Below, in pieces: positions 19,277 to 52,666 of a stretch of 64,000 bases of DNA. Positions within the stretch are counted from its first letter, which is position 1. Every line of letters starts with the position of its first letter. Origin of the DNA: Cystobasidiomycetes sp. EMM_F5 (Eukaryota); assembly GCA_051047955.1 (NCBI GenBank), contig JBPGPT010000005.1, forward strand, positions 310,001-374,000. Reading direction: 5' to 3'. A program made the translations under genes and the position numbers. The notes beneath the pieces are model-generated. The model ran no database searches. It saw only the letters and a list, made by a program, of their open reading frames with translations, and was not told where the DNA came from.

Positions 19277-21185
19277 ATGAAGGCTTTAATTCTCGGTGCG
19301 TTGGCTGGTCGTCGTAGAAATTTAGGCTGACGGGGTGCCTGGCGCGTTTGGAAATTGGTGTCGCATTCTCGCAGTCGGAGGTAAGCAAGGGTGTTAGCTA
19401 GCGGCGTGTTATGGCAGCTTTACTGATGTACTTTCTGTTCTGATTATGAAATGGTAACGGCTGCTTTGTCTACTGGCTGTGGTCGCGACAAATCACCGCC
19501 TCCGACGCGTTTTCCACACCAAAACGTGCGAATCGCCAACTTTGACACACGACGGCCCTACACTACGATGCTCTATCCGTATGGCATGTTGCAGGCTTCG
19601 GCACTCGGCTTCGTCCACTCACCCTCACTCTCCCAAAGCCGCTGGTTCCTTTCTGCAAGTGAGTTGCTTTCCGCTGCATTTTGTGTTCGCCTCAAAGAAT
19701 GTAACTAATGACATATCGTACGTGCAGTAAACCCATGATTATGCATCAGATTGAGGCGCTTGTCAAGGTCTGTTGGTGCATTCTACTTCCTCATCGTCTC
19801 GGCCAACCCCGCCTTGCGAAAGTGTGCCGAGCGTACAGATGGCGCAACCGTTGAGCAGGCCCAGAGACACTCCGATAAGGGCGTCGTGCACGGACGCTGT
19901 GTCTCGTGGGCGTCGCTCGAAAGAATTTGCGTTTCCTGCGACGGTTGCACTGTCCTGTCGACGACGCTCACGCCTATTCGCACAGAGAGAAAGATCTTGC
20001 GTCAGGACCGTTACTGACGCGTATTGGTTGCTTGTATCTGCAGGCTGGCGTTACCGATGTTGTTCTTGCTGTCAATTACCGCCCGGAGGTCATGGTAGCG
20101 TTACTGTCCAAGTGCGAGGAGCAATACGGCATCAAAATCACCTTCAGCGTTGAGTCTGAGCCATTGGGAACTGGTACGTGCGCGTGTAGCGGCCTTGCTG
20201 AGCCAGTATACTGACATCTGTCGCCAACAGCTGGACCGTTGGCCCTTGCGCGAGAAGTGCTAGCCAAAGACGATTCTCCATTCTTCGTCCTCAACTCCGA
20301 TGTTATCTGCAGCTATCCCTTCGAAGCTCTGCGCGACTTCCACAAGGCTCACGGTAACGAGGGCACTATCATGGTCACAAAGGTCGACGAGCCGTCCAAA
20401 TACGGTGTGGTTGTACAAGTACCAGGCAAGACTGTCATTGACCGCTTCGTGGAGAAGCCAGTCGAATTTGTCGGAAACCGCATCAACGCCGGTATCTACA
20501 TTTTCAACCCATCCGTCTTGAAGCGCATCGAGGTACGCCCGTGATCGTCCCGATTTTACTAGATATATGTACTGAGATATAAATACAGCTCAAGCCGACC
20601 TCTATCGAGAAGGAGACTTTCCCGGCCATGGCCAACGAGAAGGAGCTGCATAGCATGGACCTGCCCGGCTTCTGGATGGACGTCGGTCAACCGAAAGACT
20701 ACCTCAGCGGTACCTGCCTCTACCTCTCGTACCTGTCTTCGCAGAAGAGCAAGGCCGTTACGGACCCAGCGCAGAACCCATGGGTACACGGCGGCAACGT
20801 CATGGTCGACCCAGTCAGTTGATGATACTATGAAGGACTTTGCGTGCTTGCTGATGATATGAGTACTGTCTCACAGACGGCACAAATTGACCCATCCGCC
20901 GTAATTGGACCAAATGTCGTTATTGGACCTCGATGCGTCATTGGAAAGGGAGTTCGTCTGCAACGCTGCGCGATCCTGGAAGGCGCTCGCGTAAAGGATC
21001 ACGCATGGATCCACTCGTCCATCGTCGGCTGGAACTCGACTGTTGGACGATGGGTTCGGTTGGAGAACATTTCCGTACTTGGTGATGACGTTGCCATCAA
21101 GGATGAACTGCTTGTCAATGGCGCGTCTGTCCTGCCACACAAGAGCATCTCATCTTCCATCCTCACGCCAAGCATTGTTATGTAA
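19277..21185 (+). CDS. MPG1: Mannose-1-phosphate guanylyltransferase (GDP-mannose pyrophosphorylase)
   Basis: Spliced [62 protein letters not shown] and hexapeptide repeats; includes a 6-nt microexon at 19375-19380. Confidence 0.97.
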
Positions 21186-21689
21186 TTGCCCCTTACAAGG
21201 CAGTTGTAGCATGCTAGTCGATTTTAGATGACGAAAACTACCTTACGTCGCGTTTACCTTCCTCCTCATAATCCTTTCGGTCGATCCTTTCATCTAAGAA
21301 TACTCTCTGCTTTGCAGGTTGGTTCTCTGACTATATCGTCGACGTACAATCGCAACTTCGCTTTCTTTCCCTCCGAGTACTGTTCGACTCGGAGAAGCTT
21401 CCTTACCTAGAGCAATATAAGCCATCATCTCGCATCGACACTCGTTCTCCACATTCGTTATCTCAAAGACTAGCTACTCGTTATGCATACAGTAGGAGTT
21501 TATGAAAGCATTCTTGCTGATGGAGCTTGCATCTTGCGAATGGATTTGTTGCCATGATTGAGCGGCAGAGCCTTGCCTGCTTTACAAACGACACTTCGTT
21601 ATTGTCCATTTGCCATCTGTCGATCCGTACATGAACTTGCAGCGTCACCGTGCAAACGCTTGGACAGCCGCAACTTGCTCGCACTAAAC

Positions 21690-22088
21690 ATGGCCGTCTT
21701 TCCATCGCAGCGCTTGCAACCTCGCAAGACTACAGACTATGTTCGCAGTGCCTCTCGGCGTCATCCGTTCCTCTACTTTGGCTTGCCATTTGTCGCAGTC
21801 GTCGTAGCTGGATCATTTGGACTTTCGAGCCTGACGCAGACGAGATATGACCTTCGAGCTTCACGCGTACAGACGATGAGCAAGGAGGATGAGCTGCGCA
21901 TGGACAAGAATCGCAAAAAAGTCGATATTCGTGAAGAATACTTCAGACTGCAGGCCAAGAGTGGAGAGGACAAGACTGGATCTGGTGGACTTCGTGGAAC
22001 GCTGGATAGTAAAGACGAATGGGAGAATAAGAGAATACAGCGATTACCTGGCCAGGCAGAATGGGGCGAACTTCCCAAACCGACTTGA
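21690..22088 (+). CDS. COX16: Cytochrome c oxidase assembly protein Cox16
   Basis: RHPFLYFGLPF-TM-GSFGLSSLTQTRYD, KVDIREEYFRL, WENKRI. Confidence 0.9.
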   Translation: MAVFPSQRLQPRKTTDYVRSASRRHPFLYFGLPFVAVVVAGSFGLSSLTQTRYDLRASRVQTMSKEDELRMDKNRKKVDIREEYFRLQAKSGEDKTGSGGLRGTLDSKDEWENKRIQRLPGQAEWGELPKPT

Positions 22089-23147
22089 GCACTTGGATTG
22101 CTCTCTTTCATTGCACGACTCAAAGGATTGGCAAGGCAGACCTGTGACACGCAACACGTCTATACGTCATGCATAGATGCACCTCTGCACGGCTAAGCAG
22201 GAGGGGATCATCAAACTAATCTTGCGAGTTTCACATCCATAGCCACACCTGGCAGGGGTGCGGACATCTTATTATCAGTCCAACGGCACAGAGAGAGGAG
22301 ATCCACTATCTTATCACTTGGAACAGTGCTTATTGCGTATCTCCACGCCTCGAGCAGCGAATTCGGCATTCGTGGATCGCTACTTCTCTCGCAAGGCTTT
22401 TCTCGCGACGGTGGTCTGAATTAGCGAAGTCTGCAATGCAATCTGCCGTACATGCACTGTGCGCACTTCTGGCTCACAGCCTTACTGCGCACATGGATCC
22501 GTCGGCGGTTCTTTATCCATAATTGGCATGAACGGCTACCTTTACGCGCAACGTGCAGAGAGAACCTAACCCTTTCAAGACTCCAGAGCCTGCGAACGCA
22601 CGCCCTTCACTCACAACATGGGACGCATTCAACACATGATGAGAGCAACCTTGGCCCGATTGGATCTAGCTTACAACGCGGAAACCGTGGATAGGGCAGA
22701 TAGCTGCCTAGCTCTATCATCCGGGATTAGAAAGAAAGGAATAGGAAAGAAGCATAGCCTACAACTGCAGCTACAGAGTACTTCGTGCATAGAAACACAT
22801 CGCTTCTGACGTGTACCTTGTCTTTCTGTTTTTTCCGAAACTGCTGATCGCGTGCTCTATCGCGTGAAGCGTGTTTTTCGGATCCAGAAAACGAGCAACA
22901 AGGTCGTTGTCTAAGCAATTTTATCGGAGCAGAGGTATTGGAAATCCGAAAGATGCAGCCTTTTGTGTATATACGCTCGTGCAGCTATTAGAAGCTGCCA
23001 ACCTGTCTGTAGATCGAGCTTCTTCTGACCAAGGGGGATATCCCGTTTGAGGGCCGAGACCTCGCGAGCGGACCTGAGAATTCCAGTCTTGGACTTTGTG
23101 GAAGTCTAGCACGTCCAACTCTTGACGGAGCAGCACTGCTTCCATCT

Positions 23148-25065
23148 ATGACATCTGCGGACGACATGGACGACGCTGTGCTCCGCTTGCACCCGCCAGA
23201 CCTGGCAGCGAGCTTCGATATGCTCGTTCTGGGTTGCGGCGGAGGCCCAGTTGAAGATAATCTGTCGGCTTACCTGCTCAAGCCTAGCCAGCAGCCGTGG
23301 AGTACTGGCTTCACGAGCATCGACGGCGGTACGGATACTGGAATATCTTTTGGTCGCGTTGGCCTAGCTGAAGCCTTGTTTGCTGGCTCGTCATGCTTTC
23401 CGACCACTGGTTTGTTTTGATATCTCTGGGACGGCGACCGTTGGTCAATTTGGGTGTTCCTCTGTGGGGATTCTCCTCATTGCGCTTGACTCTTTCATGC
23501 GGACCTTGGGCTCTGCGGGTTTACAAACAACAGGATCATGCCTGGGAGCTCTGACGCGACTTCTGGCCAGCCGACCTGCAGCCTTTGCAGGGTTCGACTT
23601 GCCGACGAGCAACTATAATTCACCATTGGCCAACGCAGGCTATGTCTTCAGCCTGCTGCATAGCTTTCTCATAACCCATGCGCACTGGGGTGAGTGTACC
23701 TGCACTGCAAGACAGCCACGTGCCAGACAACTAACCTCGGAGACAATGCTCAAACAGATCATATATCTGTACGACATTTCCCGTCTTCTACCTACCTCTC
23801 TTGCTGAATTATCCACAGGGCCTTGTCCTGGCTTCCGGATCGGGCGCAGCGCAAAAGTCGGTGTACGGCTCGCGACAGACGCTGCAGAATTTGGAAGCAG
23901 CTATGAATGGTGGACTATGGCCTGTCCTTGGTTCATACGACAAGGACAGGAGCGTACCTTACATATGGCGAACGTAAGGATCGCGTTGTCAAAAGGAGAA
24001 TGTTTGCTGACTTGCCTGCGACATGTATTGCTTTCCCGACCCTTGTGTCAACGCGCAGAATGGATGCCTCATCGAAAGTGAAGCCATCGCCAGGCTTGAC
24101 TGCGACCATCAGGCCTGTCTCGCATGGTCGTCACCATAAAGCGACATCCTACGAGTCTTCTGCCTTTTTCATTACAAACGATGACAATGGCCGTAGCGTG
24201 CTCATATTTGGCGACGTCGAGCCTGACAGTGTCAGTGGAGAAGACCTGAATAGGCGGATATGGAAGGAAGCCGCCGAGCGGATACGAGAGAACCGCTTAC
24301 ATACTATATTAATAGAATGCTCGTATACAGTACGTGCAGGTTCCGTATGGGCGGCAGATTCCAAGGGCTTACGTGATCTTTGTATCTACTGCTAGTCATC
24401 TCGACCGCGAGACCAATTATACGGTCACTTATCCCCACCATTCCTCTTCGAAGAACTCGCAATACTCGCTTCCTATCTACATCTATACAACCATATTAAC
24501 GAACATAATGTCGATATCGCGTCCTTAGCACCCTCCTCGTCACCATCCGACCTGAAAGGCCGTTTACGTGGCATAAACGTCTGCCTAATACACATCAAGG
24601 ATCCTATGAGCGTGGTTGAGGTGATCAAGGCATCGGGCCCGACGGCAAGTGATCTCGACGAAACCCCCTCGTCAGTCCCAAATGCACTGGAATCAAATCT
24701 TGAGACGATATCGCAGCCTGATCCGGTGGTGTCAGAACCGACGTCAAAGCGGCGGCGGAGTTCACGGACTTCGACAACGCTAAGCTCCTCAATATCTTCA
24801 CCTTCTAACAGAATGAAGACAGCGTCCCCTCCCAAGCGTGCAGCACCGTCGACTGCAGCCGCATCTGCAACAGCAGCCGCAAGTTTGCCAGAAAGCTTCC
24901 GTTCAAAAGTTCTACACGAGGTAGAAGTGCTTGAACAACAATACCAGCTTGGAGCGAGATTCTTCGCATTACAACAAGGCATGCGAATAGGTGCGTTGCT
25001 CTGCGATCCATGCGAATGTATGTACTTTAGAAGCTGATTCGATGAATGCTACCGTAGCTATCTAG
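23148..25065 (+). CDS. PDE1: Class II (low-affinity) cAMP phosphodiesterase, metallo-beta-lactamase fold
   Basis: VLGCGGGPVEDN, spliced THAHWDHISG (HxHxDH), VSHG, FGDVEPDS, IECSY and LYGHLSP. Confidence 0.9.
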
Positions 25066-25481
25066 CAGACTATCATCTATCCGCTAATGGTGGATCCAGG
25101 AGGAAGGAACGAAAGGGCAAATACACGGGCATGCACTTGTCGTTCCTCCTTCTACAATCCTCTCCTTTGCACTGCAGCGTGATCATAGATCGCATGCCCT
25201 GGTGGCCTAGTCGTCATAAGTGAAGTTGGGGCCATGAGAACGTCGGAGGGTAGTGTAGAGGTACTACACATAGCATAGGCACGTCGAATAGCTGGCCTAC
25301 GAGGCGTCGTCCAATCATACGCATGATATCCAGCTCCTGCCCGATCACGAGCATTGCTTAGCGCTGACGGATGCCAAGTGACGATACCCTTTGCTGATTG
25401 ACAGCAGTCGCCGAGAGAAACAAGCGGCTTAAATTTTGCGTGCTATAACCTTGGATCGCATCCGTGCCTCTTGGAGCCTAC

Positions 25482-27204
25482 CTAGCCTTTTCGATAGTTG
25501 GCAAATGCAAGTAGGACGGCTTCAACGCAGGTGATTGTGGCAGCGGAGCCAATAAAGCTGCTCGCGATGGTTGGTCGATAGCCAACAAAGTACGCACGAA
25601 GGCCTAAGAGACGAGTTGACCAGAGTTCTAGCCAGGCGCTTCTTTCCCCTGGATGCCAGCTGCGTTTAAACCGCGACAGGCGCGCTAGTAGCGCATGCGT
25701 CGTCGTTGTTGGGTACATGTACACGTAGTGCTTCATTCCGTCGGAATATATCTGCCGTGACACGGATGTTATGGTCGGAGCAGGCTGTGAGTGAAAGGTT
25801 TGCAGACGCGTTTTGATGATGTCGAGGCTGCACAAATCAAAGTCAAAGCCAATGATGCTCAGTGCTTATCGGTTGACTCGACGTCGGGTCGCTCACGGAT
25901 ACGGTACCATAGCGCTCAAGCAGCCTGCCAGACCTCCTGCGAGTAGCGTCTGCAGTACAGTCACCGTCCGAGAAGGTCCGATGTCAGGCAGTATTTCGGG
26001 TACAGGTGTTACTTCTTCGTTGCGTGATACTTGTTGTAATGACAATGCTTGATTTGTGGACCATGAAAATACAGAAGATGGCGATGACGAATGTTCTGAT
26101 GCTAACGGATTCTCAAAGCGGAGAAGACGACGAAAGACGATATCTGAGGAGCGGCGTGAGCTGAGAGGACTGTATAAAACGCTTGTACGCACAACTAGAA
26201 AAGAATATGCCAGAGCTGACGGTATCTCTAAATGCAGTTGTAAGGCCGCCGTGGTAGAAACCTTATTCTGAAGTTAGAGCAAGTCCGTCATACAGCTCGA
26301 CAACCGGAATACCTTTAAAGCCTTCCTGATTGGCAATAAGCTTGGTTATGCCATAACTACCGAGTTTCCTCGACGAGGCTTGGTTCTCCACCTGAGCGCG
26401 GCATTTGATAACCTCAATCTGGTTTTGGAGCGTATCAGCGCAATCGTTAGAACCAGCGTATCGTGCACATACAGGCGTCTGTAAGAGAGCGCACAAGCCA
26501 CCGGCGATCGCACCGGACGCAAAGACTCGAGATATTTCAGAAGGATTCTGTCTGTCTTGATTGAACATTGACCTTGAAGGTATAGCGAGTTAGCCTTGTT
26601 TCCCCTTCGAAATCAGAAGCAAGCACACATTGACCGCCCATATATGCCGAAAAATGCAGCATCAATGAATGCTAGGCCCTGCAAAAGCGGCGAAATACTG
26701 AGCGTGCTCGAGAAGCTGACAGCATGTCTTGCTCACCAGAATTGGCGCTGCGGCTCCCGCTACGAGGAAACGCGCGCCCTCTGCTCTCCACAATAGCAAT
26801 AAACCTTCGCGCGTGCTTGCTGGAGGACGGCTTCCGGCTCCAGCTCTGGGAGTGCTAGGTGTATCGGCAGCGGTTGCAGCAGGTATTGCGGTTTGCATTC
26901 GCACTTTTCTGTTTATATTGCGTCGTTTAGTTGGACTTTGGGCGACCGAGATGCCTCGGTGCAGAAAGAGCTTACAATACTTCGAGTGGATTGGACTGTG
27001 GAGAATGATCAGATGGAGGGGCTGGGCAGATACGAGAATTGCGCAACACACGGCTAATATCCCCAGAGCACCACCGAACCATCCAGCGACTATATCGTCC
27101 AGAAGCTCGGGCTCATTGTGCCGGATTACGACTGCCGCTGGCTCGGCGGACACGGCAGAGGATGCAGCATTGGTTACCGTGCTCTTGATGGCATCGTATG
27201 ACAT
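25482..27204 (-). CDS. Mitochondrial carrier (SLC25) family protein
   Basis: Three PX(D/E)XXK signatures after splicing (PLEVLKVRMQ, PIEVIKCRAQ, PLDIIKTRLQ). Substrate uncertain. Confidence 0.88.
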
Positions 27205-27480
27205 TTGTCGAGCATGAGCTCAGGCTGATGCGATCTTGGATCTTGGATTGTTGCAACTCAGTACCGACGACCAGACTCGGCGAAGAAGCGTCGAGTAATG
27301 GCAGATTTGCAAATGGTGGGCAGGCGTTCAGCAGCCAGAATGGTTCCCAGAGGTCAGCCGCAATGTGCGAGCAGTCTGAACAAAATAAAGCTGGCCGATA
27401 ATCCAAGTGGGCGCATTTGATTTGTTGATCTTCGCCTTGAGCTTTGCATCACATCAACGCAGCAAACATCTGATAAAACA

Positions 27481-29346
27481 ATGGCACGGCGGGTTTGTCT
27501 ACAGCTATCCATGCAGGGCAACACTGGCAGAGTCACTGACGCGCAGCCCAATCACTCCAGCGAAAGAACCGCACACATGCCGCTAAAGCCGATCAGGCAA
27601 AAAAGGTCAATGATGGCACGCCCAAAAGTTTTGTCGTGCACAGCGGGCTTGTCGGGGGTAGCGTCAAGCAGCTGTCCAAGGATCTCCGACGTGTCCTCGA
27701 GCCAAACACTGCAACCCGTTTACGAGTGAGTAGACGACTTTTCCAGATTTTGTGGAAACGCTAATGACAGATTTTCGTATAAAGGAACGCAAAAGCAACA
27801 AGATTAAAGACTTCATCGCAATGTCTGGTCCATTGGGAGTGACTCATCTTTTGGTGTTCGCGCAGAGCGAGGCAAACAAATCAGCTGCCGAGGACGATAA
27901 AGAAGATCCAGCGTCTAACGTCAATATGAGGATAACGAGGCTGCCAAGGGGTCCTACTCTTGGCTTCAAGGTGTTACGCTATGCTCTGGTGCGCGATATC
28001 CTAGCCGCGACCAAGCGTCCGCACACGCCTGGCAAGGAATTCCAGACAGAACCGATTGTGAGATAATGCGAGTGTGACGCTGTCGCATCAATATGCTGAC
28101 TCTCCACAAGCTCATCCTCAACAACTTCTCATCAACCAACAATACAGCAGACGCACGGCAGCTGGGCCTAATGCAGACCATGTTTCAGAATCTGTTTCCT
28201 CCCATCAAAGTGCACAGCATGCCACTTGCATCTGCAAGGCGGGTCGTACTGCTCTCATACAACCCAGAGACTCGGACGATCGATTTTAGACACTACCTCA
28301 TTGCGGTGCGACCGGTCGGTGTGTCAAGGGCCGTCAGGAAATTGATTGATGGGACAACTGCAAGAAGGCGGCCGCGAGAAGGATCGGTCTACTCCGCTGC
28401 CGCTAGCGATGCAACTACCGCGACGTCTGCTTCTGCCTCCTTTGCGGCCCTCAAGGCCCGTGGTCTGCCAGATCTGCGTAGCGCCCAGGACGTCAGCGAC
28501 TATGTGTTGCACCATGGCGATCTTGGCTTCTTGTCTTCCGTAAGCGACGCAGAGAGCGATGCTTCTGGCGCAGAGTCGGAAGGCGAAGGTGGAGAAGGAG
28601 GCGAATCAAGTCGACATGTCGACCTGTCGTCGGCATATATTGGCCGAGCCAATCGAAATGCAGCGGTCATGGCTCAAGGCGGCGAGAAGCGTGCTGTGAA
28701 ACTTACTGAACTTGGACCACGAATGGAGTTGGGTCTCGTCAAGATTGAGGACGGTATCGGTGATGGCAAGGGAGATGTCTTGTTTCACGAATTTATTCAC
28801 AAGACGGCAAAAGAGGCGGCAGATATTGCTCGACGAGCCAAAGAGCGCGAAAAGCTGTCAATGGCTCGCAGAAAGGAGCAGGAGGCCAACGTCAAGCGGA
28901 AAAAGGACGCAAAGGAGAAATTGAAGGCGGAGAAGAAGCAGAGACGCGAGCGAAAGGAGGCAGATGGCGAGGATGTTGATGAGGATGAGGCTTCAAGCGG
29001 AGATGCAGCGGAGGAGGATGACGATGAATTCGCGTACGAAGATCTCTTTGCGGAAGACGGCACAGCTGGCGACGGAGTGGGCGCAGATGAAGCGTTACCG
29101 GGCGGCGATGAGATCGATGAAGAAGAAGAGCTCTTCGACGAAGGGGACGATTCTGACCCAGAAGGCGCGGCGGAACCTGCTGGCGACTCGAGTGACAGCG
29201 ATCATGAGCAATTGCCGCCCGCGAAGAAGCTCTCACGGCCAGGCTTGACGTCTTCAGCCTCGAAACCGTCAGCCGGCTCGAAGAATGGCAAGAGCAGGCA
29301 ACCGAAATTTAGTATGCGCACTAGCGGAAAGCCGCAGCGTCGATGA
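27481..29346 (+). CDS. SSF1: Ribosome biogenesis Brix-domain protein Ssf1/Peter Pan
   Basis: MARRRKNRTH, PKSFVV, RLPRGPTL.F, RAVKLTELGPRMEL and an acidic tail. Confidence 0.93.
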
Positions 29347-29508
29347 TCAGGTGTCTTGAGATTGTCAATGGCTTGATGTTGTGACTTGCTTAGGCCAATG
29401 TGCTCTGCATCATGATAATACAGGCATCCGTGTGTATGGCAAGATACACACGACCATGATTCTGCTAACTGGTTGGCCTGCTTATTACGCATCTGACTAC
29501 TTGAAGAC

Positions 29509-30764
29509 ATGGCCCATTTAACACCTGCACTCGGCGGGGACAACACGGAAAAGCTGCAGCTAGCTTCAACATTTGCTGAGAGCATACAGCGATTTCATTT
29601 TGAGGACAAGAGGACGCGTAGTTCTCCTAGGCGGCGCGTTACAAGTCCCGCCAGTGCTGCTTCAACGTCATACACAGTTTCCTGTTCCACACCGCCAACA
29701 AAGCGCAGGACATTATCAGATGGCAAAGAGTCATCTTCAACACTACACTCCGCCTCCAAGTCCCCTAGAAAGCGTCAAAAAACGAGAGCGACGTTTGAAG
29801 ACATGGCGGAGATACCGGATCGTTTAGCGAAGGATCTGGACAGTCGGTGGACTGTACTCTTTCTACTGATCGCAATGACCTGACTACGAATGATGAAAAC
29901 TGCCTCTAGTCCTCTTTTGCGGATACAACCCTGGCGTACGGTCATCCGAACTCGGCTACCACTATGCTCACCCCTCGAATCGATTCTATCGCATATTACA
30001 CGAGTCAGGATTGACAGAGAGGCGGCTGAAGCCTGAAGATTCGCCGTCTATGCCCGAAACTTACAAACTTGGCTTGACTGACCTCGTCGCGAGGTGTACG
30101 GCCCGCGCAGATCAGGTTTCTAGCCTGGAGTTTCAGGCTGGTGCTGTTGGCCTGCTGGAAAAGATTATCAAATGGCGACCAAAGATGTTCGTGCGAGTCC
30201 AGCTACGTGATCCGTCTATATGAGGCTGATATCTATTTTAGGGTATGCTTCGTAGGCATGGACGTATACCGCAACTTTCGCAAACATTTTGCGGCTGTCT
30301 TAGATAAGGATCGTGTCCGCGTAAAGTCGGAAATAGATGATAAGGTCACCCTTGTCCCGCGTTCTCCGCCCCCGAGCCCTCACAAACAATCTAAGAGCGA
30401 TGTTCGTCTGGGTCTACAGGAAATAGTGCTGTCTATCGCACCGGAGGATGTAGATTCTGCGCCAAGAGATCTGGTGAGGCTATTCGTCATCCCTTCTAGC
30501 AGCGGGCTAGCAGCTGGGTATAGTGTGAATGTTTTCGGCGGTATATGACGACGTATGCTAGCTAATCACTCCGTATTTCTGCAGGATCAAGATAGAATAG
30601 GATACCTCAAGCTTGCGAAAGAGATAGTCATGAGCATACGGGCAGGTTGGTACGCCGAACCATCTGACATTCTTGCTATCGATGCGGAGCTACATCTGGA
30701 GAGTCGCATCCAGCAACAAGCAGCTGGAAAGTGGAGCTTTGTAAAGTCAGAAGCGGATCTCTGA
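29509..30764 (+). CDS. TDG/MUG-family mismatch-specific uracil/thymine DNA glycosylase
   Basis: LFCGYNPG..S...GYHYAHPSNRFY, GLTDLVAR.T and FVIPSSSGLAA motifs. Confidence 0.88.
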
Positions 30765-43298: not shown

Positions 43299-43814
43299 GG
43301 TTGTGCAGGAAAGTGTCAAAGCAGATTGGGCGACTTGGCCATTTCGAGGTGTCAACAACTTCCCGGCCAAACAATACTGTCAAAACTGGAATGTATCGAT
43401 ATCCATAAGGGCACGACACAACGAGACACATGTACATTGTATAGAGAGAAGAATATTAGGTGGGTTCGACAGTTCAAGCAAGTCTAGTCACGCAATGTTA
43501 TTATCGCTGCGGAGATGATGGAGATTCGGAATGGAGGGCTGGAAAACAACAGTGATAACAAGCGTTGACGGAGGAAAGATCATCAAGCTCCATCGACAGA
43601 CGGTGTCCTTGACGGTGATTGACCTTGATTGAGAAGCGGAGAAAGGCTGGCCATGACTACCCAGAATGAGTGTAATTTACTTTTGGAATATGGCAGTCAT
43701 TTCTCCTCCCTACGATGCACAATACGACACGGGTACCGTGCAGGCAAAGTGGTAGTGAAGTAATGACTGTCGAGAATATGCGGCGCGGTCCAGTGGGTTG
43801 CAAGACTACGTTCT

Positions 43815-46424
43815 CTACTTGTTGCTCGGCGAGAAGGCATGCTTTACCTTTTGGAAGAAGCTGCTCTTGCGCTTGCGTTCAGTCGTGGCAGGCGTAGCGG
43901 GCGTCGAAGGGGCAGTAGCGTATTTATCGCTCGTACCGGTAGCAGGTGTACCGTTGGCTGCATTTGCCGAAGTCTTTTGCGGCGTGACTGGTACTGGCGC
44001 TTGTCCCTTTCCGAGAGAAGAGGTATCCTTCTTGCTCAGAGTGGAAGTCGGCGTCTTGAGCGCAGACTTGGTCTCTGGAATCTTGCCCACACCAGCTGCA
44101 GCTGCTCCTTGGCCAGCAGGTGTAGTCTTGCTTGCAGAAGTGGTAGATGTAGTGGTAGTGGTAGCAGTAGGAGCGACCGGAGCGTCTGCCTTCTTGTCGT
44201 CACCTCGCGAGATCTTCTTCTTGAGCTTTTCAGCAATGCCCTCTCCGCTCTTCTTGCCAGCGGAAGAGTCCTTCGACTCGTTGACGACGGCAGGAATGAC
44301 GACAGGGTGAGTATCGGTAGATGTAGAAGGAGCAGCGGGGGTGCTACTAGTCTTGGCAGGTCCAGAAGCGACAGACGCAGGATTAGCAGAAGTGGTCTCC
44401 TTTGCAGGTACTGGTGTTCCAGTCTTGGCGGCGGTGTGGTGCTGCTCTGGCTCTGCAATCTTGACTGGTGCAGGAGATGATCCATCGGTAGGATAGATTG
44501 GTCCGCCAAAGCCGGTGACTGGCGGCAACTGAGGAGCACCGCTCGAACTGGTGGTCGAGGAGGGGACAGCAGGTCCAGCTATTTCAGCGAGAATGCTTGT
44601 CAGCGCACTCGGAAGCGACTCGAGCAGCTTGTGTCTACTTACATTTCGCTTCAACAGGCGGCGCAACAGCAGCGGACGTGAAGGCTGGTTGAGGAACAGC
44701 ACTGCCAGTAGCAGGCGAGGTGACGCCCAGAGCCGAAATGCCAGAGGTGATAGCTGCTCCGAGTGCCTCAACAGCACCGGTCACTTCCTTCTTGGTGTCA
44801 TCCAGTGTGACGCGACTCATCTCCTTGGATACAGCGGCAGTAGCGTTGCTAGAAGCGATTGGTGCAAGAGCAGCCTTTGCATCTGCGGCTTTGTCGGCCG
44901 TACCGACAGTGGTGCCGGATGGCGCAGCGGTGGGCTTGGTCGATGCAGCTGTATCTCTGGTTACAGGCAAGACTGGAGTAGCCTCCGCAGAAGGGTGGAC
45001 AGCGGCACCCTCGATCTTTGCTACCACAGATTCTGCGGCCTGCTCAACTGCAGCTACAGCACTAGTCGCTAAGTGGGAGATGGCAGAGAATATGCCCTGC
45101 GAGCTTGAAGCAGGGATAGACGACGGCAGGACAGGCGCATCCTTGGTAGAAGCTGGCAGAGGAGCTTTGGCAGAACTACCGTGAGAGGTGGACGATGGCC
45201 CGCCAACAATGGTAGCCGTTGTGGCAGTGGCAGCCCCAGTTGCTGGATTTACAGAAGTGCTGGAACCGGATCCGCCAGAGATGACCTTCTCTGGTGCCTT
45301 CTCGCCAGACTTGGCGGAAGAAGCAGCAGCTCCGCCGATGCCGACTGCGCCAAGCAAAGCGCCAGCTCCAATAGCCGCGGCACCCGACGATTGACCAGTG
45401 TGCGCGCCATTGGCAGAGCTGGCCGGAGCGTGGGTCGTATCGGAGCCAGACGAAACGGACGGTTTGGCAAGGTCTAAACAACGTTTACATTAGTTAGGGC
45501 GCCATAACGACAGACTGAAAATGTAGCACACCATTGACAGAAACGCCGGTCCCAGAAGCGGACGCCTGAGTTACGTTTGGTGCGACCTTTTCGACGCCCT
45601 GGACACCGCCGGCAATTGGCGAGGCAGATTTTGCTACCGGTGAAGATGGTGATGCCGTTGTGCCATTGTGAGTAGTAGCTACGACCGGACCAGAGGGTGT
45701 AGACTCATGTGCGGCTCCCTCTGTTATTGGTTCTTTAGCGGCGGAAGTCGTTGACCCAAGCAGGCCAGCTGGGACTTCGCTCTCCTTTGGTACTGCAAGC
45801 GAACCACAAATTAAATTAATGAACACTGTTTGCAGGCTTTCTCTCATCGCGTCGGACGACGCCATAACTTTCGAGTCTTGCCGGCGCACGCCTAGTAGCG
45901 AGAAAACCCTGCATTCGTGAAAGATGGGGAACTTACCGTAGAAGACGTTGTTTGCAAGCCCTCTCTCGTCTGTCTCAGTCTGCTCCTGAGGGTTGACTTT
46001 CCATTCGCCGTCAATTATGTACTATTTGACGATTCAAAATTCACGTTTAGCGCGTTTCAAGACTTTACCGTGGCAGCACAGCTCACTTTGTAAGAGATCT
46101 TCTCTCCGTATGGAAGGTGCTATAGAATGACAGGAGAAAGTGTCCTTATCGTGAGCTCGTGCTCTCGAGCAACCGTGTCCCTATGCCAAATTCGTGCGGC
46201 CTTCGGCTTCAAGACTCACCACTGAAGCAATCCAGTACAGGTTGGGAATCTTGGTGAGCTTATGAGCGTTTCTAGAGGGAGCCAAGCCGCCATCAGCACA
46301 TCCTGCGCCCTAGTCATTGTGCGGACTCAGCGCACTCGTCCCAATTGCACCACGAGCCCGTCACTCTGACAGACTCGTGGTTCAGGTCGTAGAGAATAAA
46401 ATCGCGGAGGTATCCAGTCGTCAT
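43815..46424 (-). CDS. CBM48/AMPK-beta-like glycogen-binding domain protein with long A/S/T/P-rich tail (Crp1/Mdg1-like)
   Basis: Spliced VRVTGSWCNW..LPYGEKISYKYIIDGEW..DERGLANNVF; C-terminal KRKSSFFQKVKHAF. Confidence 0.85.
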
Positions 46425-46904
46425 GGTTGGGGTATAGCTGCAGCAGGTTGCGTACTCGGGCTATCACGTATGAGCTTGCTTTCACGTTCCGTCGAGCGAG
46501 GCAGAAGTCAGAGCAGCGCCTTTCTTTCGACCAGCCTGCGAGAGGCGTGACGTTGAGCGCCGAATCTTGATCGAAATTGCAAAGACTTTGACTTTGGGGA
46601 ATTCGCATGGCATTCGCCAACAACGTACATGGTTGGCTACAACGGACTACGCAGTCATGGTACAGAATTCACCGTTAGAAAATCCCATGCCGGCAATTTG
46701 GGCTAATGCTGCCAGATGGCGAGACTGGGGGTCGGGACCAGAGACTGCCAAAACGCACTGATCACTCATTTGCAAGCGTTTCAGTCTGTACAGGCGCTTT
46801 AGGAATCACAGAGATACTGGGGACAAGTCGTCAATTTGCTCCTTGGTCTGTTTTCTCGGCGTTGAAGCGATGAGCTGCTGACTTACCAGACACGTCCTGA
46901 TGAC

Positions 46905-47582
46905 TCAGACTTGGTTGATAGTTCCGAACGAATGGCCGAAGTATACCGTGTAACAGGTCGCTATCTCGCCAATGCTCAAATGCGTTTCCGAGGCTTTATC
47001 AAACAGCTCCATAACCCACTTGCGGACTTGGTCGACCGTCTTTTTATCCTTACATTGCTGCTGAGCGTCCTTGGTGACCACATCATTGTAGAATATCAGA
47101 CCAGGTCCTGCGAGCGTAGTATCATCGTGATGACCTCTTCTCCACTTTCGGTGCGGTCGACGATCGCGAAAGCAGACGACTGGTGATGAATTTGTGCAGT
47201 GAAGGCGACGGCCGTATGGTCCGCCCGGAAGTATCGTCCCCTTGCCGTATGCAGAAAGCCTCGGACAGCTGCCTCGGTGTCGCCAGGAGAGGTGCCGTGA
47301 ACGCCTTGCTGCTCCAGCCAGTACTCGCAAGCTGTTTGCATGATCCATGTGGAAATTGACAACGATATCACTTTTGACGGCTGCTAGGCGCCTCGAAACC
47401 GGGTGGCAGCAATGACCCCTCGATGTGGAAAGCTGTTGCCAGCTTTATGAGGATGCGCTGCGAGGTTGAGTATATTGGACGGCTTTAGTAAAGTCACGAA
47501 GTAAGCGCCAGGCAAAGGGCACGAGTCAGCGTCAGAGGCGATCAGGCTGACATGACAGTCATTTCGGTAATACAATTGCATG
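46905..47582 (-). pseudogene. Disrupted paralog A of an orphan family
   Basis: Homologous to 48099-48888 (WLE..GV, YFR.DHTAVAFTA.IH, GPG.IFY, QVR.WV). 1-nt frameshift near 47123 and in-frame TAG at 47384-47386. Start uncertain. Confidence 0.6.
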
Positions 47583-48098
47583 ACGATTATCAAGTTATAT
47601 GAGCATGAGAATGTAAGCAGACAGTCGGAGCAGCTGAAGATACAGTGCATAAATGTACGCTGTTAGCACCATGAACTTGCAAACTCTCATGGTCAAGACA
47701 GCGGGACTTCGTAAATCGCAGCGGTGTACTAGAAGGGACACATGATGCAGATGAGTGCCCCTTTCAGTCGTTTGTAATTGACCGGTAAGCCATGGATATG
47801 TGATCATCGCTTCGATGTTGCTATCGTCCTAGATGCTCCTGCCCTCCACAGTGTCTATTGCTATGAAGCGCAGGGGGATCTCGACAGAGCGTAGACGAAG
47901 GTTGTACAATTTGACACGACGCAACTATAAGCGCGACGTCGATATACGGGAGGATCTCAATTGAACCTGACCCCGCTTGACCTGACGGGCACAGCTGGTC
48001 GAATAGACTCTTGAAACGGTATCGACCACGCATCTGCAAGTGATTTGATCTGCTGGGGAGTGCCAGGGACGAGCGAAAGGCTGTGCGCGATAATCAGC

Positions 48099-48888
48099 TT
48101 AACAGTGAAGCGCTTTGCAGATCACACCGTTGACTGACAAGACTCGATTGGCATCACTTGTTGACGGCTCCGAATGAATGGCCGAGGTGTATTTGGTGCC
48201 GACGCGCCATGCTCCAAGCTCTCCAACACGCAATTGCGTCGTTGGTACATTGTCGAAATGGTCCGCGACCCATCTGCGGACTTGGTACTCGCTCTTTCCA
48301 GCATCGCGCTGCTCTTGGGCGCCTTTGTTGACCACATCGTGAAGAGGATCGTTGTCGGCAACATGGTAGAAGATTGTGCCGGGTCCGACGAGTACTGTGC
48401 CAAGCTTGATGATGTCTTCTCCGCTGCTAGCATTCCAGTAGGGTACGTCGTCGCCGTCGTGATGAGGACGAGGGATTTCAAAAGCATTTGACGAGCCATG
48501 TATGCGAGCAGTGAAAGCAACAGCAGTGTGCTAAGGGCGGAAATATTTAGCTTTAGCGGCTTGCAAGAATCCCGACACCGCTAGCTGGGTACTTCCAGAG
48601 AAGAAGCCGCGAACGCCATGCTTTTCAAGCCAGTCGGCGGCTAGCTGCGCAAGACACTCGTTATTCATGCCGAAGATATTGAGATTACTGGTTTCGTCCA
48701 ACAGAGGTGGCTCCTGTTGGTACACGGAGGGACTTCCAGTATTGCTTGAATGCGTAAGCGTCAACTTACGGAAGCAGAGGAGTCACGAGTATCGCTTTGA
48801 CTGACCTTGTGCTAGTAAAAACCGCATTGATGCTAAGCTTGACTGGGCTAGGTGTGAAGCGCTCTGTATGGAATGCAAGTTCCGCCAT
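48099..48888 (-). pseudogene. Disrupted paralog B of an orphan family
   Basis: One in-frame TAG at 48531-48533 inside the conserved YFRP*HTAVAFTARIH; the frame then stays open to 48099. Confidence 0.65.
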
Positions 48889-49407
48889 CTTCGGAAGCGT
48901 ATTGTATGCGTACAAGATTGAGGGGAAAGGTTGGGAGGAGGAAAAGCGAGTTCGGAAGATCTTATGACTTGGTCGTCAAGCTAGGCGCTGACAGTCCAAC
49001 CTCCAGCCACAACTGAGACAGACACGAGTAGTACGGCGCACACGCAGATGTGTCACTTGACCTTGCATTTCGCTGTCAATCCTGCTGAGCAGTTCACTCT
49101 GAAGGAAGCATGTGCTGAACGTAAGTCGGGAATCAAAAGCCCTACGTTAGTCCAGCAACTGCAGTGAGACCTTGAAAGGGTCCAAAGCCATATACATAAT
49201 CCATGCAGTCCTTTAAACCAGATCCGTTCGGTAGGATCAGATGGTCAAGAGAACTTTGTCTATTGAGCTTTGCCGTCAACTGAATCATTGCGAACGCATG
49301 CCAAAGCTAAGATTGCCGTCAACCGCATAGAAAGCGTTAGTGATCAACCTTGGCTCCGCATGCACTCTGTGAAACAATAAGGACAGCGTTGGAGCAGTAC
49401 TGCAGTC

Positions 49408-49999
49408 ATGCTTGGCTTGAAGGCGACCATGGTGGGCTGGAGCGAAGAAAGGCGGCTGTCGGGTGTCTGACTTATTGGGTTCGTATGGATGCAGTCGATC
49501 ATCGACAACTCTGGTGCAGTCCTGGCGGAGTGCGTCAACGTACTGAAATGCAAGACTGGGCACGGCCATGCTCGGATAGGTATGCTTTGCAGATACAAAT
49601 TGGTTTGAAGGAGATTGCTAAAGGCTCCCTGCTTACCGTTTGCCAGGCGACGAAATTGTGGTGGTCGTAAAGAAGGCCCGGCCGATTCCTACTACAGCTG
49701 CGGCGGGCAGCGCAGCTGCTAACAAAGTACGCAGAGGCGATGTGAGACGAGCTGTCGTTGTCCGCACAAAGAAGGAAACCCGGCGGCCGGATGGACGATG
49801 GATCCGTTTTGATGACAATGCAGCCGTACTTCTGAACAACAAGGTAAGCCAGACCTTTCTTGCATCTGTTGCTCGTCTAACCTCCGATCCTCATCATAAG
49901 CGTGAATTATTGGGAACCCGCGTCAACAGCATCGTCGCAGCGGAATTGCGGGAAATGGGCTGGAGTCGAATATGCTCATTAGCGCCAAAAGTCGCTTAA
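49408..49999 (+). CDS. MRPL38: Mitochondrial ribosomal protein uL14m
   Basis: [53 protein letters not shown]. Confidence 0.93.
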
Positions 50000-50846
50000 C
50001 AACATCACAGCCTCAATCCTCGCATCTCAAGCAGTTACTTGATGTTGTAACACTATGCGCAGCCTCGCAATTTGAACGCACGCATGCTCTTCGCGCAAAC
50101 AATATTAACGATTAACGATAACTCCCAATTAAGCGCTGATGTTGGACTATCTGGTTTCTGGCCGGATCAGACTCCCTGATAGCGATGGAAACACCTGCCG
50201 GGTCGATCTGGTCTTGATGCCTAGGTAAAAACACGTTCGCTACGTCATCACCAAATCAGCTTGACAAGCTTTTCTTGCAGCTTTATAGATCAACGTCGTT
50301 ACAGCCGTGTTCTCATATGCACACACATTCACACGACGATGGTGTGTGAGGAATAGGAGAGAGAACGAGAACTGCTCACGATGTTTTGGCATTACAACAA
50401 TCGTGAGCTGTGAAGGACCATCAAGACACGAACGATACGATAAATCGCCCACCACGGCCAGTCAAGGGAGTAGGCCAGCTGTATCTGAAAAAAGACACGT
50501 CCCGAATATCCTTTCTGTGCGCGTTTCCAAGGTAAACAACCCACCCGTAGGCCGAATGTAAAGTCCAAGCCATTTGCTTGAAGTTCAGCTAGCTGTTATG
50601 AGAGAATCAGCACCGGCATTGGGAGTAGATTGTCTGCAGTGTACCACGTAGAGGCTTCCATTACCACCCAAAAGTCATTGCGTACCCCTCCGTTTTGCCA
50701 CCCGAAGATCGGGTTTCCGTCCCTGCAAATTTTCAAATCAGCTGGCCTCTTTCCCTTCCAACCAAGTTTCTTGCACCTTTTGACGAGGAGCAGAGCAGTA
50801 CAGCCGCAAGACGCAACGCAAAGAATACACACAGTCAACACACAAC

Positions 50847-52666
50847 ATGTCTGCTGAAGGATGGGGACAGAGCAACGACGGGGGTGCGGGTGCGGGGAGT
50901 GTGTTGCTGTCTGACAAGCGTTCTCGAGGGCTGAGGTTAGGGCCTCGCGTTACCACCGGACACCCTGTTGGCCGTCTCGCTCTTCTCTTGATGTCTCGCG
51001 CCGTATCTTCGATGCCTTCGTCGTCGTCCACTCCTCGCATCTCGCGTCCCCATTCCGTCGCTTCTCCCTCTCGACCTACCCATCTCTCCGCCCTCCCTAA
51101 AACCATAACCCGATCATACGCACGCTCAGGTTACGGTGGTGCAGATACCACCTCGTGGGGTGTAAGTAGCGAGGTTGATACGTCGGCATGGTTGTCTTAC
51201 TGACTGCGTTGATGCTTAGAACTCCGGCGGAAACAGCGGCTACGGCCAGCGATCGACCGCCTGCTTCAACTGCGGACAAGGTTAGTCTCAGAATCCAATC
51301 AATTATTACGCATACTGATTATTGCCCTTGTACAGAGGTGATTGTTATTCCATTCCAGACTGTGTTTGCTCTCCTGGGTGCCCTCTCCTTCCACATACAA
51401 AGCTCGTTTGGCAGCTGTCCTAGTAAAGCTAGCATACAATGTGCCAGCAGAGTCTTGTTTTCCATCCCATCATCCTCTCCTCCTCACGTGTGTCGTAGCG
51501 TACAGAGTCGTCTTCGGAAGGTGGTCGGAAGAGTGCTTTCGAAGCCGTTTGGCGTGATTGACGAAGAGCAGCAAAGTGAAGTGCAGTCGAAGATGCAGAA
51601 GAGGGTCGAGTCGAGTCCTACGATGTTTCGTCGAGATTCGAGGAGTCACGGTTTGCAATGCATTCATTTCCGTTTCGAACTGCTTGATTGCCCCTTTGGC
51701 TGTTTTCATTCGACATCCTAAGTCTTTCCAATCGTGAGCAGGTGTGCGGGAACAAGTAGTCGGAGCTAGACACGAGCGAGGTTGGCGTGATGCAGAGGAG
51801 TCGAGCTGGGGCGAGGTCGGAGGTCCACTTGTGTGATTTTTGACTAACTGTGCATCTGTCCAACTCTCCTGATTGGTATTCTGCATACTCCCGCACTCCC
51901 GCATCTGACCGCGCACCACATCACTACATCGACCCTGCTTTTAACGCATTGTACTGATTTACTTGACCCATTACCTCTGCCATTCCGTCTCGCGCTCGCA
52001 TCAGGGTCACCGATCCAGCGGTAAGTTGCAATATGATCTGGCCGACTTGGTCATCGTCTCTGACAGATTGTGTCGTAGACTGCACCGAGCCCCGCAAGCC
52101 CCGTGCCTGCTACAAGTGCGGCCAAGAGGGTCACATGTCTCGAGACTGCCCAGATGCTGGCAACAGCGCCGGAGGTGGTGGCTACAGCAGCCGACCCGAC
52201 ACTCGGTCGTGCTACAACTGTGGACAGAGCGGACACTTGTCGCGCGACTGCCCAACCAAGTCTGACCGCGGATACGGCGGATCGAGCGGAGGAGGAGGCG
52301 TGAGTTGCTACTTTGCATGTTGATCGATAGCAGTGCTCAATCTCTGTGTTCTTCTCTTGTAGAACTGCTACAACTGTGGACAGCCCGGCCATCTGAGCCG
52401 TGACTGCACTGAACCCCGCTCCGACAGCCGCGGAGGCGGAGGAGGAGGCTATGGCCAACGAAGCTCGGGCGGACGCTCGTGCTACAACTGCGGCGGTGAC
52501 GGCCACATTTCGCGTGACTGCCCCGAGCCACGACAGGGTGGAGGTGGAGGAAGTGGCTACGGTCAGCGAAGCGGCGGTGGAGACCGTGCATGCTACAACT
52601 GTGGCCAGACTGGACATTTGTCCCGTGACTGCACCAACCCGGCCCAGTCTTCCGGTGGCTACTAGA
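50847..52666 (+). CDS. CNBP/Gis2/Byr3-like multi-CCHC zinc-knuckle RNA-binding protein
   Basis: Six CX2CX4HX4C knuckles ([42 protein letters not shown] and others) with RGG/GY linkers; requires the 2-nt exon 51336-51337. Confidence 0.9.

What the first reader, a model, noticed from the sequence alone, without database searches (positions are those of the whole stretch)
19381..52004. Recurring intron class: distant branch point followed by a 158-187 nt AG-free extension, in three unrelated genes
Seen: most introns here are about 50-75 nt, but four long ones have no AG dinucleotide for 158-187 nt before the 3' splice site. These are MPG1 intron 2 (AG-free 19418-19592, TACTGAT at 19421), PDE1 intron 1 (AG-free 23374-23531, GCTGAA at 23367), CNBP-like intron 1 (AG-free 50941-51127, CTGAC/CTGAG at 50911/50931) and the CNBP-like long intron (AG-free 51823-52002, GACTAAC at 51842). 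In the first three, the branch motif lies about 30-50 nt from the donor, as in ordinary short introns, so the extra length is all between branch point and acceptor. Known: distant branch points with AG-exclusion zones mark regulated exons in animals, whereas fungal branch-to-AG distances are usually short. Inference: this lineage may use scanning-type 3' splice-site selection, with similar-length lariat tails acting as regulatory platforms. The coordinates span the four loci.
Basis: partly seen in the sequence, partly recalled or inferred. Interest (0 to 1): 0.8.

Follow-up and report, generated by a model that had tools for sequence, protein, structure and literature searches.

The report
Long AG-free tails in fungal introns
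Four introns in three unrelated genes of a yeast-like fungus lack any AG for 158-187 bases before their 3' end, which fits branch sites lying unusually far from the splice acceptor, a known arrangement that is rare in fungi.

Summary
Each ends at a 3' splice site that I verified by homology (MPG1, PDE1) or by spliced contigs (CNBP-like).

Composition does not explain them. Shuffles that keep local composition expect about 0.6 such runs per window, against 4 seen. In the zones AG occurs 0 times and GA 28 times.

All 16 of 16 ordinary verified introns have a CTNAN branch motif 11-48 nt from the acceptor. In three of the long introns a branch-like motif sits 43-46 nt from the donor, the ordinary donor-to-branch distance, and AG stops there. 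The orthologous MPG1 intron in two metagenomic relatives has the same build (tails of 156 and 140 nt) without alignable sequence.

Best reading: AG-exclusion zones downstream of distant, or multiple, branch sites, with the first AG used as acceptor. Branch points are not mapped, and all four introns also carry weaker candidate motifs 21-54 nt from the acceptor.

There is no evidence for RNA structure, a shared element, a known RNA family or a "regulatory platform". This is a new member of a known kind, of moderate interest.

The parts
19381..19594 (+). MPG1 (GDP-mannose pyrophosphorylase) intron 2, 214 nt. The AG-free tail is 19418-19592 (175 nt). The only CTNAN motifs are CTGAT with branch A at 19426 and 19443, which are 168 and 151 nt from the acceptor.
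   Evidence: Boundaries come from homology. Shuffle P(no AG) is 2e-5.
19375..19380 (+). 6-nt microexon TCGGAG between MPG1 intron 1 (19296-19374; CTGAC 44 nt from its acceptor) and intron 2.
   Evidence: The spliced model reads MKALILVGGFGTRL and matches homologs ungapped. The same hexamer is present in the cDNA-like contig L001.
19768..20043 (+). Control: MPG1 intron 4, a 276-nt long intron without the feature. It has 14 AGs in its body, CTGAC 26 nt from the acceptor and an AG-free tail of 36 nt.
23329..23533 (+). PDE1 (class II cAMP phosphodiesterase) intron 1, 205 nt. The AG-free tail is 23374-23531 (158 nt). It has no canonical CTRAY. CTGAA has its branch A at 23371 (42 nt from the donor, 162 from the acceptor). 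CTCAT lies at 54 nt and TTGAC at 44 nt from the acceptor.
50890..51129 (+). CNBP-like (zinc-knuckle) intron 1, 240 nt. The AG-free tail is 50941-51127 (187 nt). CTGAC has its branch A at 50914, only 24 nt from the donor, and is followed by unused AGs. CTGAG has its branch A at 50934. CTAAA lies 29 nt and ATAAC 21 nt from the acceptor. The intron is in frame and has no stop codon.
   Evidence: Joint 50888/9 to 51129, GT..AG, in one contig of run X12. Also.
51338..52004 (+). CNBP-like long intron (B), 667 nt. The first 485 nt hold 46 AGs and no CTRAY. The last 180 nt (51823-52002) hold no AG and four CTRAY motifs, with branch A at 51847, 51872, 51908 and 51957 (157, 132, 96 and 47 nt from the acceptor).
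   Evidence: The acceptor follows from the X12 contig that joins 51280 to 52078 with 'AG' plus the 16-nt exon in between.
51336..51337 (+). 2-nt exon 'AG' between intron A (51281-51335, 55 nt, CTGAT 17 nt from its acceptor) and intron B. It is needed to read CFNCGQEGHRSSDC.
   Evidence: Letters between the two sides of the joint (table 5c). Spliced model. The two-step splicing itself is inferred.
52005..52020 (+). 16-nt exon directly after the long intron, followed by an ordinary 58-nt intron (52021-52078).

Best explanation
These are AG-exclusion zones. In each of the four introns, one or more usable branch sites lie far upstream of the acceptor. In three of them the site is at the ordinary distance of about 43-46 nt from the donor. 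After branching, the spliceosome ligates at the first AG it meets downstream. Any AG arising in between would become the acceptor and break the reading frame, so selection has removed all of them over 158-187 nt.

Shown: the AG depletion, its start at a branch-like motif, the true splice sites, the contrast with ordinary introns, and the recurrence in orthologs.

Inferred: that the distal motifs are the branch sites actually used; that the search for the AG runs over 150-200 nt without help from RNA structure; and that such introns complete the second step slowly. The last point rests on published work on branch-distant acceptors.
For: 1. The four longest AG gaps of the + strand each end at a verified acceptor.
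2. Composition does not explain them. 4 were seen against about 0.6 expected under local-composition shuffles. AG is 0 against GA 28.
3. There is a sharp switch inside the introns. Parts upstream of the first branch motif have 72 AG in 858 nt (0.084) and one CTRAY. The tails have 0 AG in about 700 nt and six CTRAY.
4. All 16 of 16 ordinary verified introns carry CTNAN 11-48 nt from the acceptor (12 of 16 carry the canonical CTRAY). MPG1_i2 has none nearer than 151 nt.
5. The distal motifs have their branch A at intron position 46, 43 and 45. In the orthologs L005 and L007 it is at 44. This falls inside the ordinary range of 35-57.
6. CTGAA and CTGAG, the weak distal motifs of PDE1_i1 and CNBP_i1, are the only candidate branch motifs in the ordinary introns PDE1_i3 and MPG1_i6.
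7. AG is also absent from the middle segments, far from either candidate branch site (shuffle P 0.026, 0.056, 0.20).
8. The orthologous MPG1 intron in L005 and L007 (84% protein identity in the query exon) has tails of 156 and 140 nt beginning at CTAAC or CTAAA. It is not alignable to the window's intron.
9. Intermediate cases exist. CTGAC lies 44 and 48 nt from the acceptor in MPG1_i1 and PDE1_i4, with AG-free sequence between. In intron 1 of L005 and L007 a conserved block CGCGCTGATCA lies 69 nt from the acceptor.
Against: - No branch point is mapped.
- Every one of the four introns has a weaker candidate nearer the acceptor: CTAAA 29 and ATAAC 21 (CNBP_i1), CTGAT 47 (CNBP_B), CTCAT 54 (PDE1_i1), and TTGAC at 49, 44 and 38.
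- In CNBP_i1 the only canonical CTRAY (branch A 50914) is followed by AGs at 50917, 50927, 50934 and 50939 that are not used. The rule therefore needs the extra assumption that a branch 24 nt from the donor is too close to work.
- Three of the four zones are A- or G-poor, and their own shuffle P values are only 1e-2 to 1e-3.
- The tails of L005 and L007 are G-poor (0.12 and 0.08), with P 0.004 and 0.026.
- Only 2 of the 7 metagenomic loci with an intron at this position have tails >=140. The closest of the 7, L002 (86%), has a tail of 38 nt.
- No case was found on the - strand.
- The RNA support for the CNBP introns is one contig per joint, from one run, from a non-identical strain.
Confidence: 0.6

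Rival explanations
1. The branch sites actually used are the weaker motifs 21-54 nt from the acceptor. This spacing is also seen in two ordinary introns here (44 and 48 nt). The upstream branch-like motifs are only decoys. AG is still selected against downstream of them, because any nearby AG would create a short cryptic intron.
For: Candidate motifs at 21-54 nt exist in all four introns. TTGAC lies 38-49 nt upstream in 3 of 4. In intron 1 of L005 and L007, TTGAC and TTAAC align about 35-40 nt from the acceptor. A conserved block at about 30-55 nt from the acceptor is seen in L005_i2 and L007_i2. Branch-to-acceptor distances above 30 nt are rare in S. pombe, about 40 of about 5250 introns (PMC9508853, passages read).
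Against: A decoy would only forbid AGs within efficient reach (tens of nt), yet AG is also missing from the middle segments. MPG1_i2 has no CTNAN nearer than 151 nt, while 16 of 16 ordinary introns use CTNAN. TTGAC is not present at that place in the orthologous L005 and L007 intron 2. None of the 16 ordinary introns needs a TTRAY branch.
Confidence: 0.25
2. Chance and base composition: pyrimidine-rich, A- or G-poor intron sequence that happens to lack AG.
For: Gaps >=160 occur 9 times in 47 other fungal loci and are explained there by composition, with about 7 expected. Three of the four zones have A at 0.13-0.18 or G at 0.15-0.16.
Against: 4 were observed against about 0.6 expected with local composition kept, and never >=4 in 900 + strand shuffles. 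GA is 28 against AG 0. The MPG1 zone has ordinary composition (A 0.22, G 0.21) and P = 2e-5. All four abut verified acceptors on the sense strand. The same architecture occurs at the orthologous intron in relatives.
Confidence: 0.05
3. The tails are functional elements in their own right (an intron-hosted RNA, a protein-binding platform or an intronic DNA enhancer in 5'-proximal introns), and the lack of AG is a side effect. Alternatively, they are copies of an inserted mobile or introner-like element.
For: All four lie near the 5' ends of their genes. Their lengths are similar, 158-187 nt.
Against: Rfam gives no match at the gathering score or at E<=1. Folding z-scores are +1.29, +0.79, +0.81 and -0.39. 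The four share no sequence beyond 7-13 nt chance matches. The window's MPG1 intron cannot be aligned to its orthologs, although the AG-free build is kept. A sequence-specific element would not remove one dinucleotide only.
Confidence: 0.05

Closest known systems
Vertebrate introns with distant branch points and AG dinucleotide exclusion zones. The Gooding et al. 2006 class is recalled, not read. For the OGDH exons 4a/4b intron, with distant branch points near the 5' splice site (PMC7969005), only the start of the abstract was seen in the listings.
   Same: A long AG-free stretch ends at the acceptor. A branch-like motif lies at its upstream edge. In three cases the branch is close to the donor, as in OGDH.
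   Different: Here the introns are in a short-intron fungus and in housekeeping genes. They appear constitutive, with no mutually exclusive or regulated exons in evidence. Branch points are not mapped.
S. cerevisiae introns with long branch-to-acceptor distances bridged by RNA structure (PMC3239191, abstract start seen in the listing; Meyer et al. 2011 recalled).
   Same: A fungal intron with a long spacing between branch site and acceptor.
   Different: There is no sign of an evolved structure: the folds are no more stable than shuffles. The distances would be 150-195 nt.
S. pombe introns with a branch-distant 3' splice site that need Sde2, Cay1 (Cactin) and Tls1 (PMC9508853, passages read).
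   Same: An intron-rich fungus. A near acceptor is preferred over a distant one when both are present, which is what would select against intervening AGs.
   Different: In S. pombe only about 40 of about 5250 introns have a spacing >=30 nt. Here the spacing would be five times longer, in 4 of the window's introns. Factor dependence is untested.
C. neoformans introns with non-optimal predicted branch-to-acceptor distance (bioRxiv 10.1101/2021.03.19.436190, passages read).
   Same: A basidiomycete with many short introns, in which branch-to-acceptor distance governs sensitivity to accessory spliceosomal proteins.
   Different: In the passages I read, that work uses predicted distances and does not describe AG-free tails of this length.

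Membership tests
Distant-branch-point intron with AG-exclusion zone | An AG-free stretch before the acceptor far longer than in ordinary introns and than composition predicts | tested here: met
   Tails are 158-187 nt, against 10-58 nt in 16 ordinary introns. 4 gaps >=160 against about 0.6 expected. AG 0 against GA 28.
Distant-branch-point intron with AG-exclusion zone | A branch-site consensus at the upstream edge of the zone | tested here: met
   Canonical CTGAT (MPG1_i2) and CTAAC (CNBP_B) lie 5 and 21 nt inside the zone. CTGAA (PDE1_i1) and CTGAG (CNBP_i1) lie at its edge. These two variants are the only candidates in the ordinary introns PDE1_i3 and MPG1_i6.
Distant-branch-point intron with AG-exclusion zone | No equal or better branch site close to the acceptor | tested here: inconclusive
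   Met for MPG1_i2 (nearest CTNAN 151 nt). PDE1_i1 has CTCAT 54 and TTGAC 44. CNBP_i1 has CTAAA 29 and ATAAC 21. CNBP_B has a canonical CTGAT 47.
Distant-branch-point intron with AG-exclusion zone | A mapped lariat branch at the distal site, and an inserted AG that captures splicing | not testable with these tools
   Only contigs of older runs could be laid, in a single call. There are no raw reads and no bench work.
Distant-branch-point intron with AG-exclusion zone | The architecture is kept at the orthologous intron while the sequence drifts | tested here: met
   MPG1 intron before GFGTRL: L005 has a tail of 156 nt and L007 140 nt, and neither can be aligned to the window's intron. Of 7 loci with an intron at this position, 2 have tails >=140.
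Structure-bridged long branch-to-acceptor introns (budding yeast type) | A stable RNA structure between branch site and acceptor | tested here: not met
   z-scores are +1.29, +0.79, +0.81 and -0.39 against 200 dinucleotide shuffles each.
Introner-like or other repeated inserted element | Near-identical copies in unrelated genes | tested here: not met
   Only chance matches of 7-13 nt among the four. No 7-mer is shared by three.
Intron-hosted snoRNA or other described RNA family | A match to a curated covariance model | tested here: not met
   0 matches at the gathering score in the window. 0 matches at E<=1 in 19250-23600 and 50800-52100.

The most novel reading that the evidence does not exclude
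This lineage (Pucciniomycotina-like by its best named protein hits) routinely branches at the ordinary 5'-proximal position and then finds the first AG over 150-200 nt of unstructured RNA. This would be a few per cent of its introns, far more and far longer than in S. pombe. It may use such slow second-step introns next to ultra-short exons (2, 6, 16 and 19 nt here and in relatives) to order or tune splicing.
Probability: 0.2. Interest if true: 0.7.

Novelty: new member of a known kind. Interest (0 to 1): 0.5.

Why it matters
If the distal motifs are the real branch sites, this fungus tolerates branch-to-acceptor distances of 150-195 nt without helper structure. In fission yeast fewer than 1% of introns exceed 30 nt (PMC9508853). 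That would give a natural, genetically simple system for asking three things: how the spliceosome finds the acceptor after the first step; which second-step factors allow long searches; and whether such introns delay splicing next to microexons. It also matters for gene annotation. Branch-aware intron models trained on short spacings would mis-call these acceptors and the adjacent 2-nt and 6-nt exons.

Tried and rejected
- Whole genome: none is held for this window, so no genome-wide count was possible.
- Sequencing runs: no RNA holder is listed. The one read-laying run covered 46001-60000 only.
- Earlier findings of this scan: none for this genome or for these words.
- Intron finding by a loose donor+CTRAY pattern: no enrichment over shuffles, 116 and 115 against 106.
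- ORF-joining search: mostly false positives inside ORFs. A stricter pattern gave 88 candidates against 31.7 expected and was used only for the distance histogram, which peaks at 13-21 nt. The position matrix built from it is circular, because CTRAY was imposed.
- Other AG-free runs of 90-133 nt on either strand: none looked like an intron tail.
- Pfam on the two PDE1 exons that flank the intron: no hit. Replaced by homolog alignment.
- Folding, Rfam and pairwise BLAST of the tails: nothing.
- Pyrimidine content after the distal motifs (0.55-0.70 over 20 nt, apart from 0.40 after the second MPG1 CTGAT) is like that of ordinary branch-to-AG segments (mean 0.60), so it does not discriminate.
- Literature: 'AG exclusion zone' + fungi gave 3 papers, none on fungal zones. 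'AGEZ' gave 371 papers; of the 25 listed, those on splicing are human, bovine or other vertebrate work and none is fungal. Searches on distant branch points in yeast, on Cryptococcus and on fungal microexons gave context only.
- A link between microexons and long AG-exclusion zones was sought in bioRxiv 10.1101/2024.09.17.613571 (passages) and not found there.

Full report
**What the window is.** The window looks like nuclear DNA of an intron-rich fungus. GC is about 0.51 and it holds many short ORF pieces. The best named protein hits are Cystobasidium minutum (88%) and Mixia osmundae (87%) for the MPG1 exon, followed by Microbotryomycetes. For the PDE1 exon the best named hit is Cystobasidium minutum at 64%. 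It is therefore probably a member of the Pucciniomycotina. No whole genome is held.

**The observation.** The AG positions and the quoted motifs are at the stated coordinates.

**Are they introns?** Yes, all four.
- MPG1. Exon 3 aligns to residues 10-29 of solved GDP-mannose pyrophosphorylases. The spliced model with exon 1 (19277-19295), a 6-nt exon (19375-19380) and exon 3 from 19595 is 236 of 262 residues identical, ungapped from residue 1, to homolog P0010. Intron 2 is 19381-19594.
- PDE1. The gene is a class II phosphodiesterase. The spliced model aligns continuously with P0004 across ...SIDGG|SCLGAL... and four more junctions. Intron 1 is 23329-23533.
- CNBP-like gene (zinc knuckles). 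Contigs of run X12 join 50888/9 to 51129 (GT..AG, 240 nt skipped) and 51161 to 51220. They also join 51280 to 52078 with 17 letters in between, which are 'AG' plus the 16-nt exon 52005-52020 with one mismatch. Each joint rests on one contig of one run, at 88% minimum likeness, from a strain that differs by a few letters. The resulting model gives a regular zinc-knuckle protein.

**More than chance?**
- A geometric model expects 0.06 gaps >=160.
- Shuffling within blocks of 50-200 nt keeps local composition. It gives a mean of 0.16-0.28 such gaps on the + strand and never four in 900 shuffles. For both strands the mean is 0.57-0.63.
- Within the four zones AG is seen 0 times against 22.2 expected from base content, while GA is seen 28 times. 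No other dinucleotide falls below 0.72 of expectation.
- Per-zone shuffle probabilities are 2e-5 (MPG1), 1.2e-3, 1.1e-2 and 2.4e-3.
- As a control I took 47 non-redundant fungal MPG1 loci from metagenomes (167 kb, both strands). They hold 9 gaps >=160, but about 7 are expected from their local composition. Long AG-free runs as such are therefore not rare in fungal DNA. What is unusual here is the excess over composition, together with the fact that all four abut verified acceptors on the sense strand.

**Ordinary introns.** I assembled 20 introns verified by homology or by contigs.
- The 16 ordinary ones are 50-85 nt long, except MPG1 intron 4 at 276 nt.
- All 16 have a CTNAN motif 11-48 nt from the acceptor, and 12 of 16 have the canonical CTRAY.
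- In the 15 short ones the branch A lies at intron position 35-57.
- A noisier pattern search over the whole window (88 candidates against 31.7 expected by chance) peaks at 13-21 nt between branch A and acceptor.
- MPG1 intron 4 shows that length alone does not make an AG-free tail. Its body has 14 AGs and no CTRAY, and CTGAC lies 26 nt from the acceptor.

**The four long-tailed introns.**
- MPG1_i2 has CTNAN only at branch A 19426 and 19443 (168 and 151 nt from the acceptor). The last AG lies 9 nt before the first of them.
- PDE1_i1 has no canonical CTRAY. CTGAA has its branch A at 23371, overlapping the last AG.
- CNBP_i1 has a CTGAC only 24 nt from the donor, followed by four unused AGs. 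It then has CTGAG with branch A at 50934, and the last AG lies 5 nt after that.
- CNBP_B has no CTRAY and 46 AGs in its first 485 nt. Its last 180 nt hold four CTRAYs and no AG.
- In the first three, the distal branch A is at intron position 46, 43 and 45, in the middle of the ordinary range.
- Pooled, the intron parts upstream of the first branch motif have 72 AG in 858 nt (0.084), against none in about 700 nt of tails.
- This switch at a branch-like motif is what the standard rule predicts, namely that the first AG downstream of the branch becomes the acceptor.

**Against a simple reading.** Every one of the four introns also has weaker candidates nearer the acceptor.
- CTAAA at 29 and ATAAC at 21 in CNBP_i1.
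- A canonical CTGAT at 47 in CNBP_B.
- CTCAT at 54 in PDE1_i1.
- TTGAC at 49, 44 and 38 nt in MPG1_i2, PDE1_i1 and CNBP_B.

Spacings of 44 and 48 nt occur in two ordinary introns, MPG1_i1 and PDE1_i4. The branch actually used may therefore be proximal, or several may be used. However, AG is also missing from the middle segments that lie more than 40 nt from the distal motif and upstream of the proximal candidates (shuffle P 0.026, 0.056, 0.20). A mere decoy would not require that.

**Orthologs.** One scan of metagenome contigs with an MPG1 exon gave 80 loci.
- Seven have an intron at the same position, just before GFGTRL.
- Two of them, L005 and L007 (84% protein identity in the query exon), have introns of 189 and 182 nt with AG-free tails of 156 and 140 nt. 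The tails begin at CTAAC or CTAAA with branch A at position 44.
- Their sequences align with each other, and the distal motif is kept while a mid-intron CTAAT is not. They do not align with the window's intron.
- Their tails are G-poor, so their own shuffle P values are modest (0.004 and 0.026).
- The other five have tails of 24-114 nt, and L002 (86%) has 38.
- In intron 1 of L005 and L007 the only CTRAY lies 69 nt from the acceptor, inside a fully conserved block CGCGCTGATCA. This suggests that long spacings are used in this group.

**What it is not.**
- The four introns fold no better than shuffles, with z-scores of +1.29, +0.79, +0.81 and -0.39.
- Rfam gives nothing at the gathering score or at E<=1.
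- The four share no sequence.
- Nothing supports a regulatory platform or a repeated element.

**Comparison with what is known.** AG-exclusion zones downstream of distant branch points are known in vertebrates. The class as such is recalled from memory. For the OGDH case, with branches near the 5' splice site (PMC7969005), only the start of the abstract was seen. In S. pombe about 40 of about 5250 introns have a spacing >=30 nt. There a near acceptor wins over a distant one, and Sde2, Cay1 and Tls1 help distant ones (PMC9508853, passages). In C. neoformans the predicted branch-to-acceptor distance shapes dependence on accessory factors (bioRxiv 10.1101/2021.03.19.436190, passages). My searches found no description of fungal AG-exclusion zones (listings only). 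Subscription papers are not covered.

**Verdict.** The zones are most likely kept AG-free by selection against competing acceptors downstream of usable branch sites (0.6). The case is strongest for MPG1 intron 2 and weakest for CNBP intron 1. Which branch is used remains unmapped. This is a new member of a known kind.

Noticed in passing
window 51336-51337 (with 51281-51335 and 51338-52004): A 2-nt exon 'AG' appears to lie between a perfect 55-nt intron and the 667-nt intron. The spliced contig reads CAAG-AG-GGTCACC..., and the first zinc knuckle CFNCGQEGHRSSDC needs these two bases. The only alternative is a GT..TC intron. The order of the two splicing events is unknown.
   Followed up: partly
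window 19375-19380; 23758-23768; 52005-52020; L005 1808-1826: Very short exons cluster around the long-tailed introns: 6 nt (MPG1), 11 nt (PDE1), 16 nt (CNBP-like), and 19 nt before the orthologous long-tailed intron in L005 and L007. Whether the two features are linked is untested.
   Followed up: no
window 50884-51129: CNBP-like intron 1 is 240 nt, in frame and free of stop codons. The donor hexamer GTGCGG is duplicated in tandem at 50884 and 50890. One X12 contig covers 50884-51088 unspliced. Contigs cannot tell whether that is pre-mRNA, a retained intron, an excised intron or DNA.
   Followed up: no
window 19545, 23489, 51966: TTGAC has its A 49, 44 and 38 nt before the acceptor in three of the four long-tailed introns. 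By rough arithmetic of my own this is unlikely by chance, but I noticed it only after looking. It is not present at that place in the orthologous intron 2 of L005 and L007.
   Followed up: partly
L001 46-85: A cDNA-like metagenomic contig (90% identity in the MPG1 exon) reads ATGAAGGCCCTAATTCTC+TCGGAG+GCTTCGG. The 6-nt exon is therefore present, but the junction is one base short of the expected reading frame. This could be an error, an unproductive isoform or a shifted donor.
   Followed up: no
L005 1649-1807 and L007 97-252: Intron 1 of the relatives' MPG1 follows codon 2, a position where the window has no intron. It has its only CTRAY 69 nt from the acceptor, inside a fully conserved CGCGCTGATCA block. 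The window instead has an intron between codons 6 and 7, which creates the 6-nt exon.
   Followed up: partly
window 23690-23757: In PDE1 intron 2 an AG lies 8 nt after the branch A of CTAAC and is passed over for the CAG 23 nt after it. A minimum branch-to-AG distance therefore applies in this organism.
   Followed up: no
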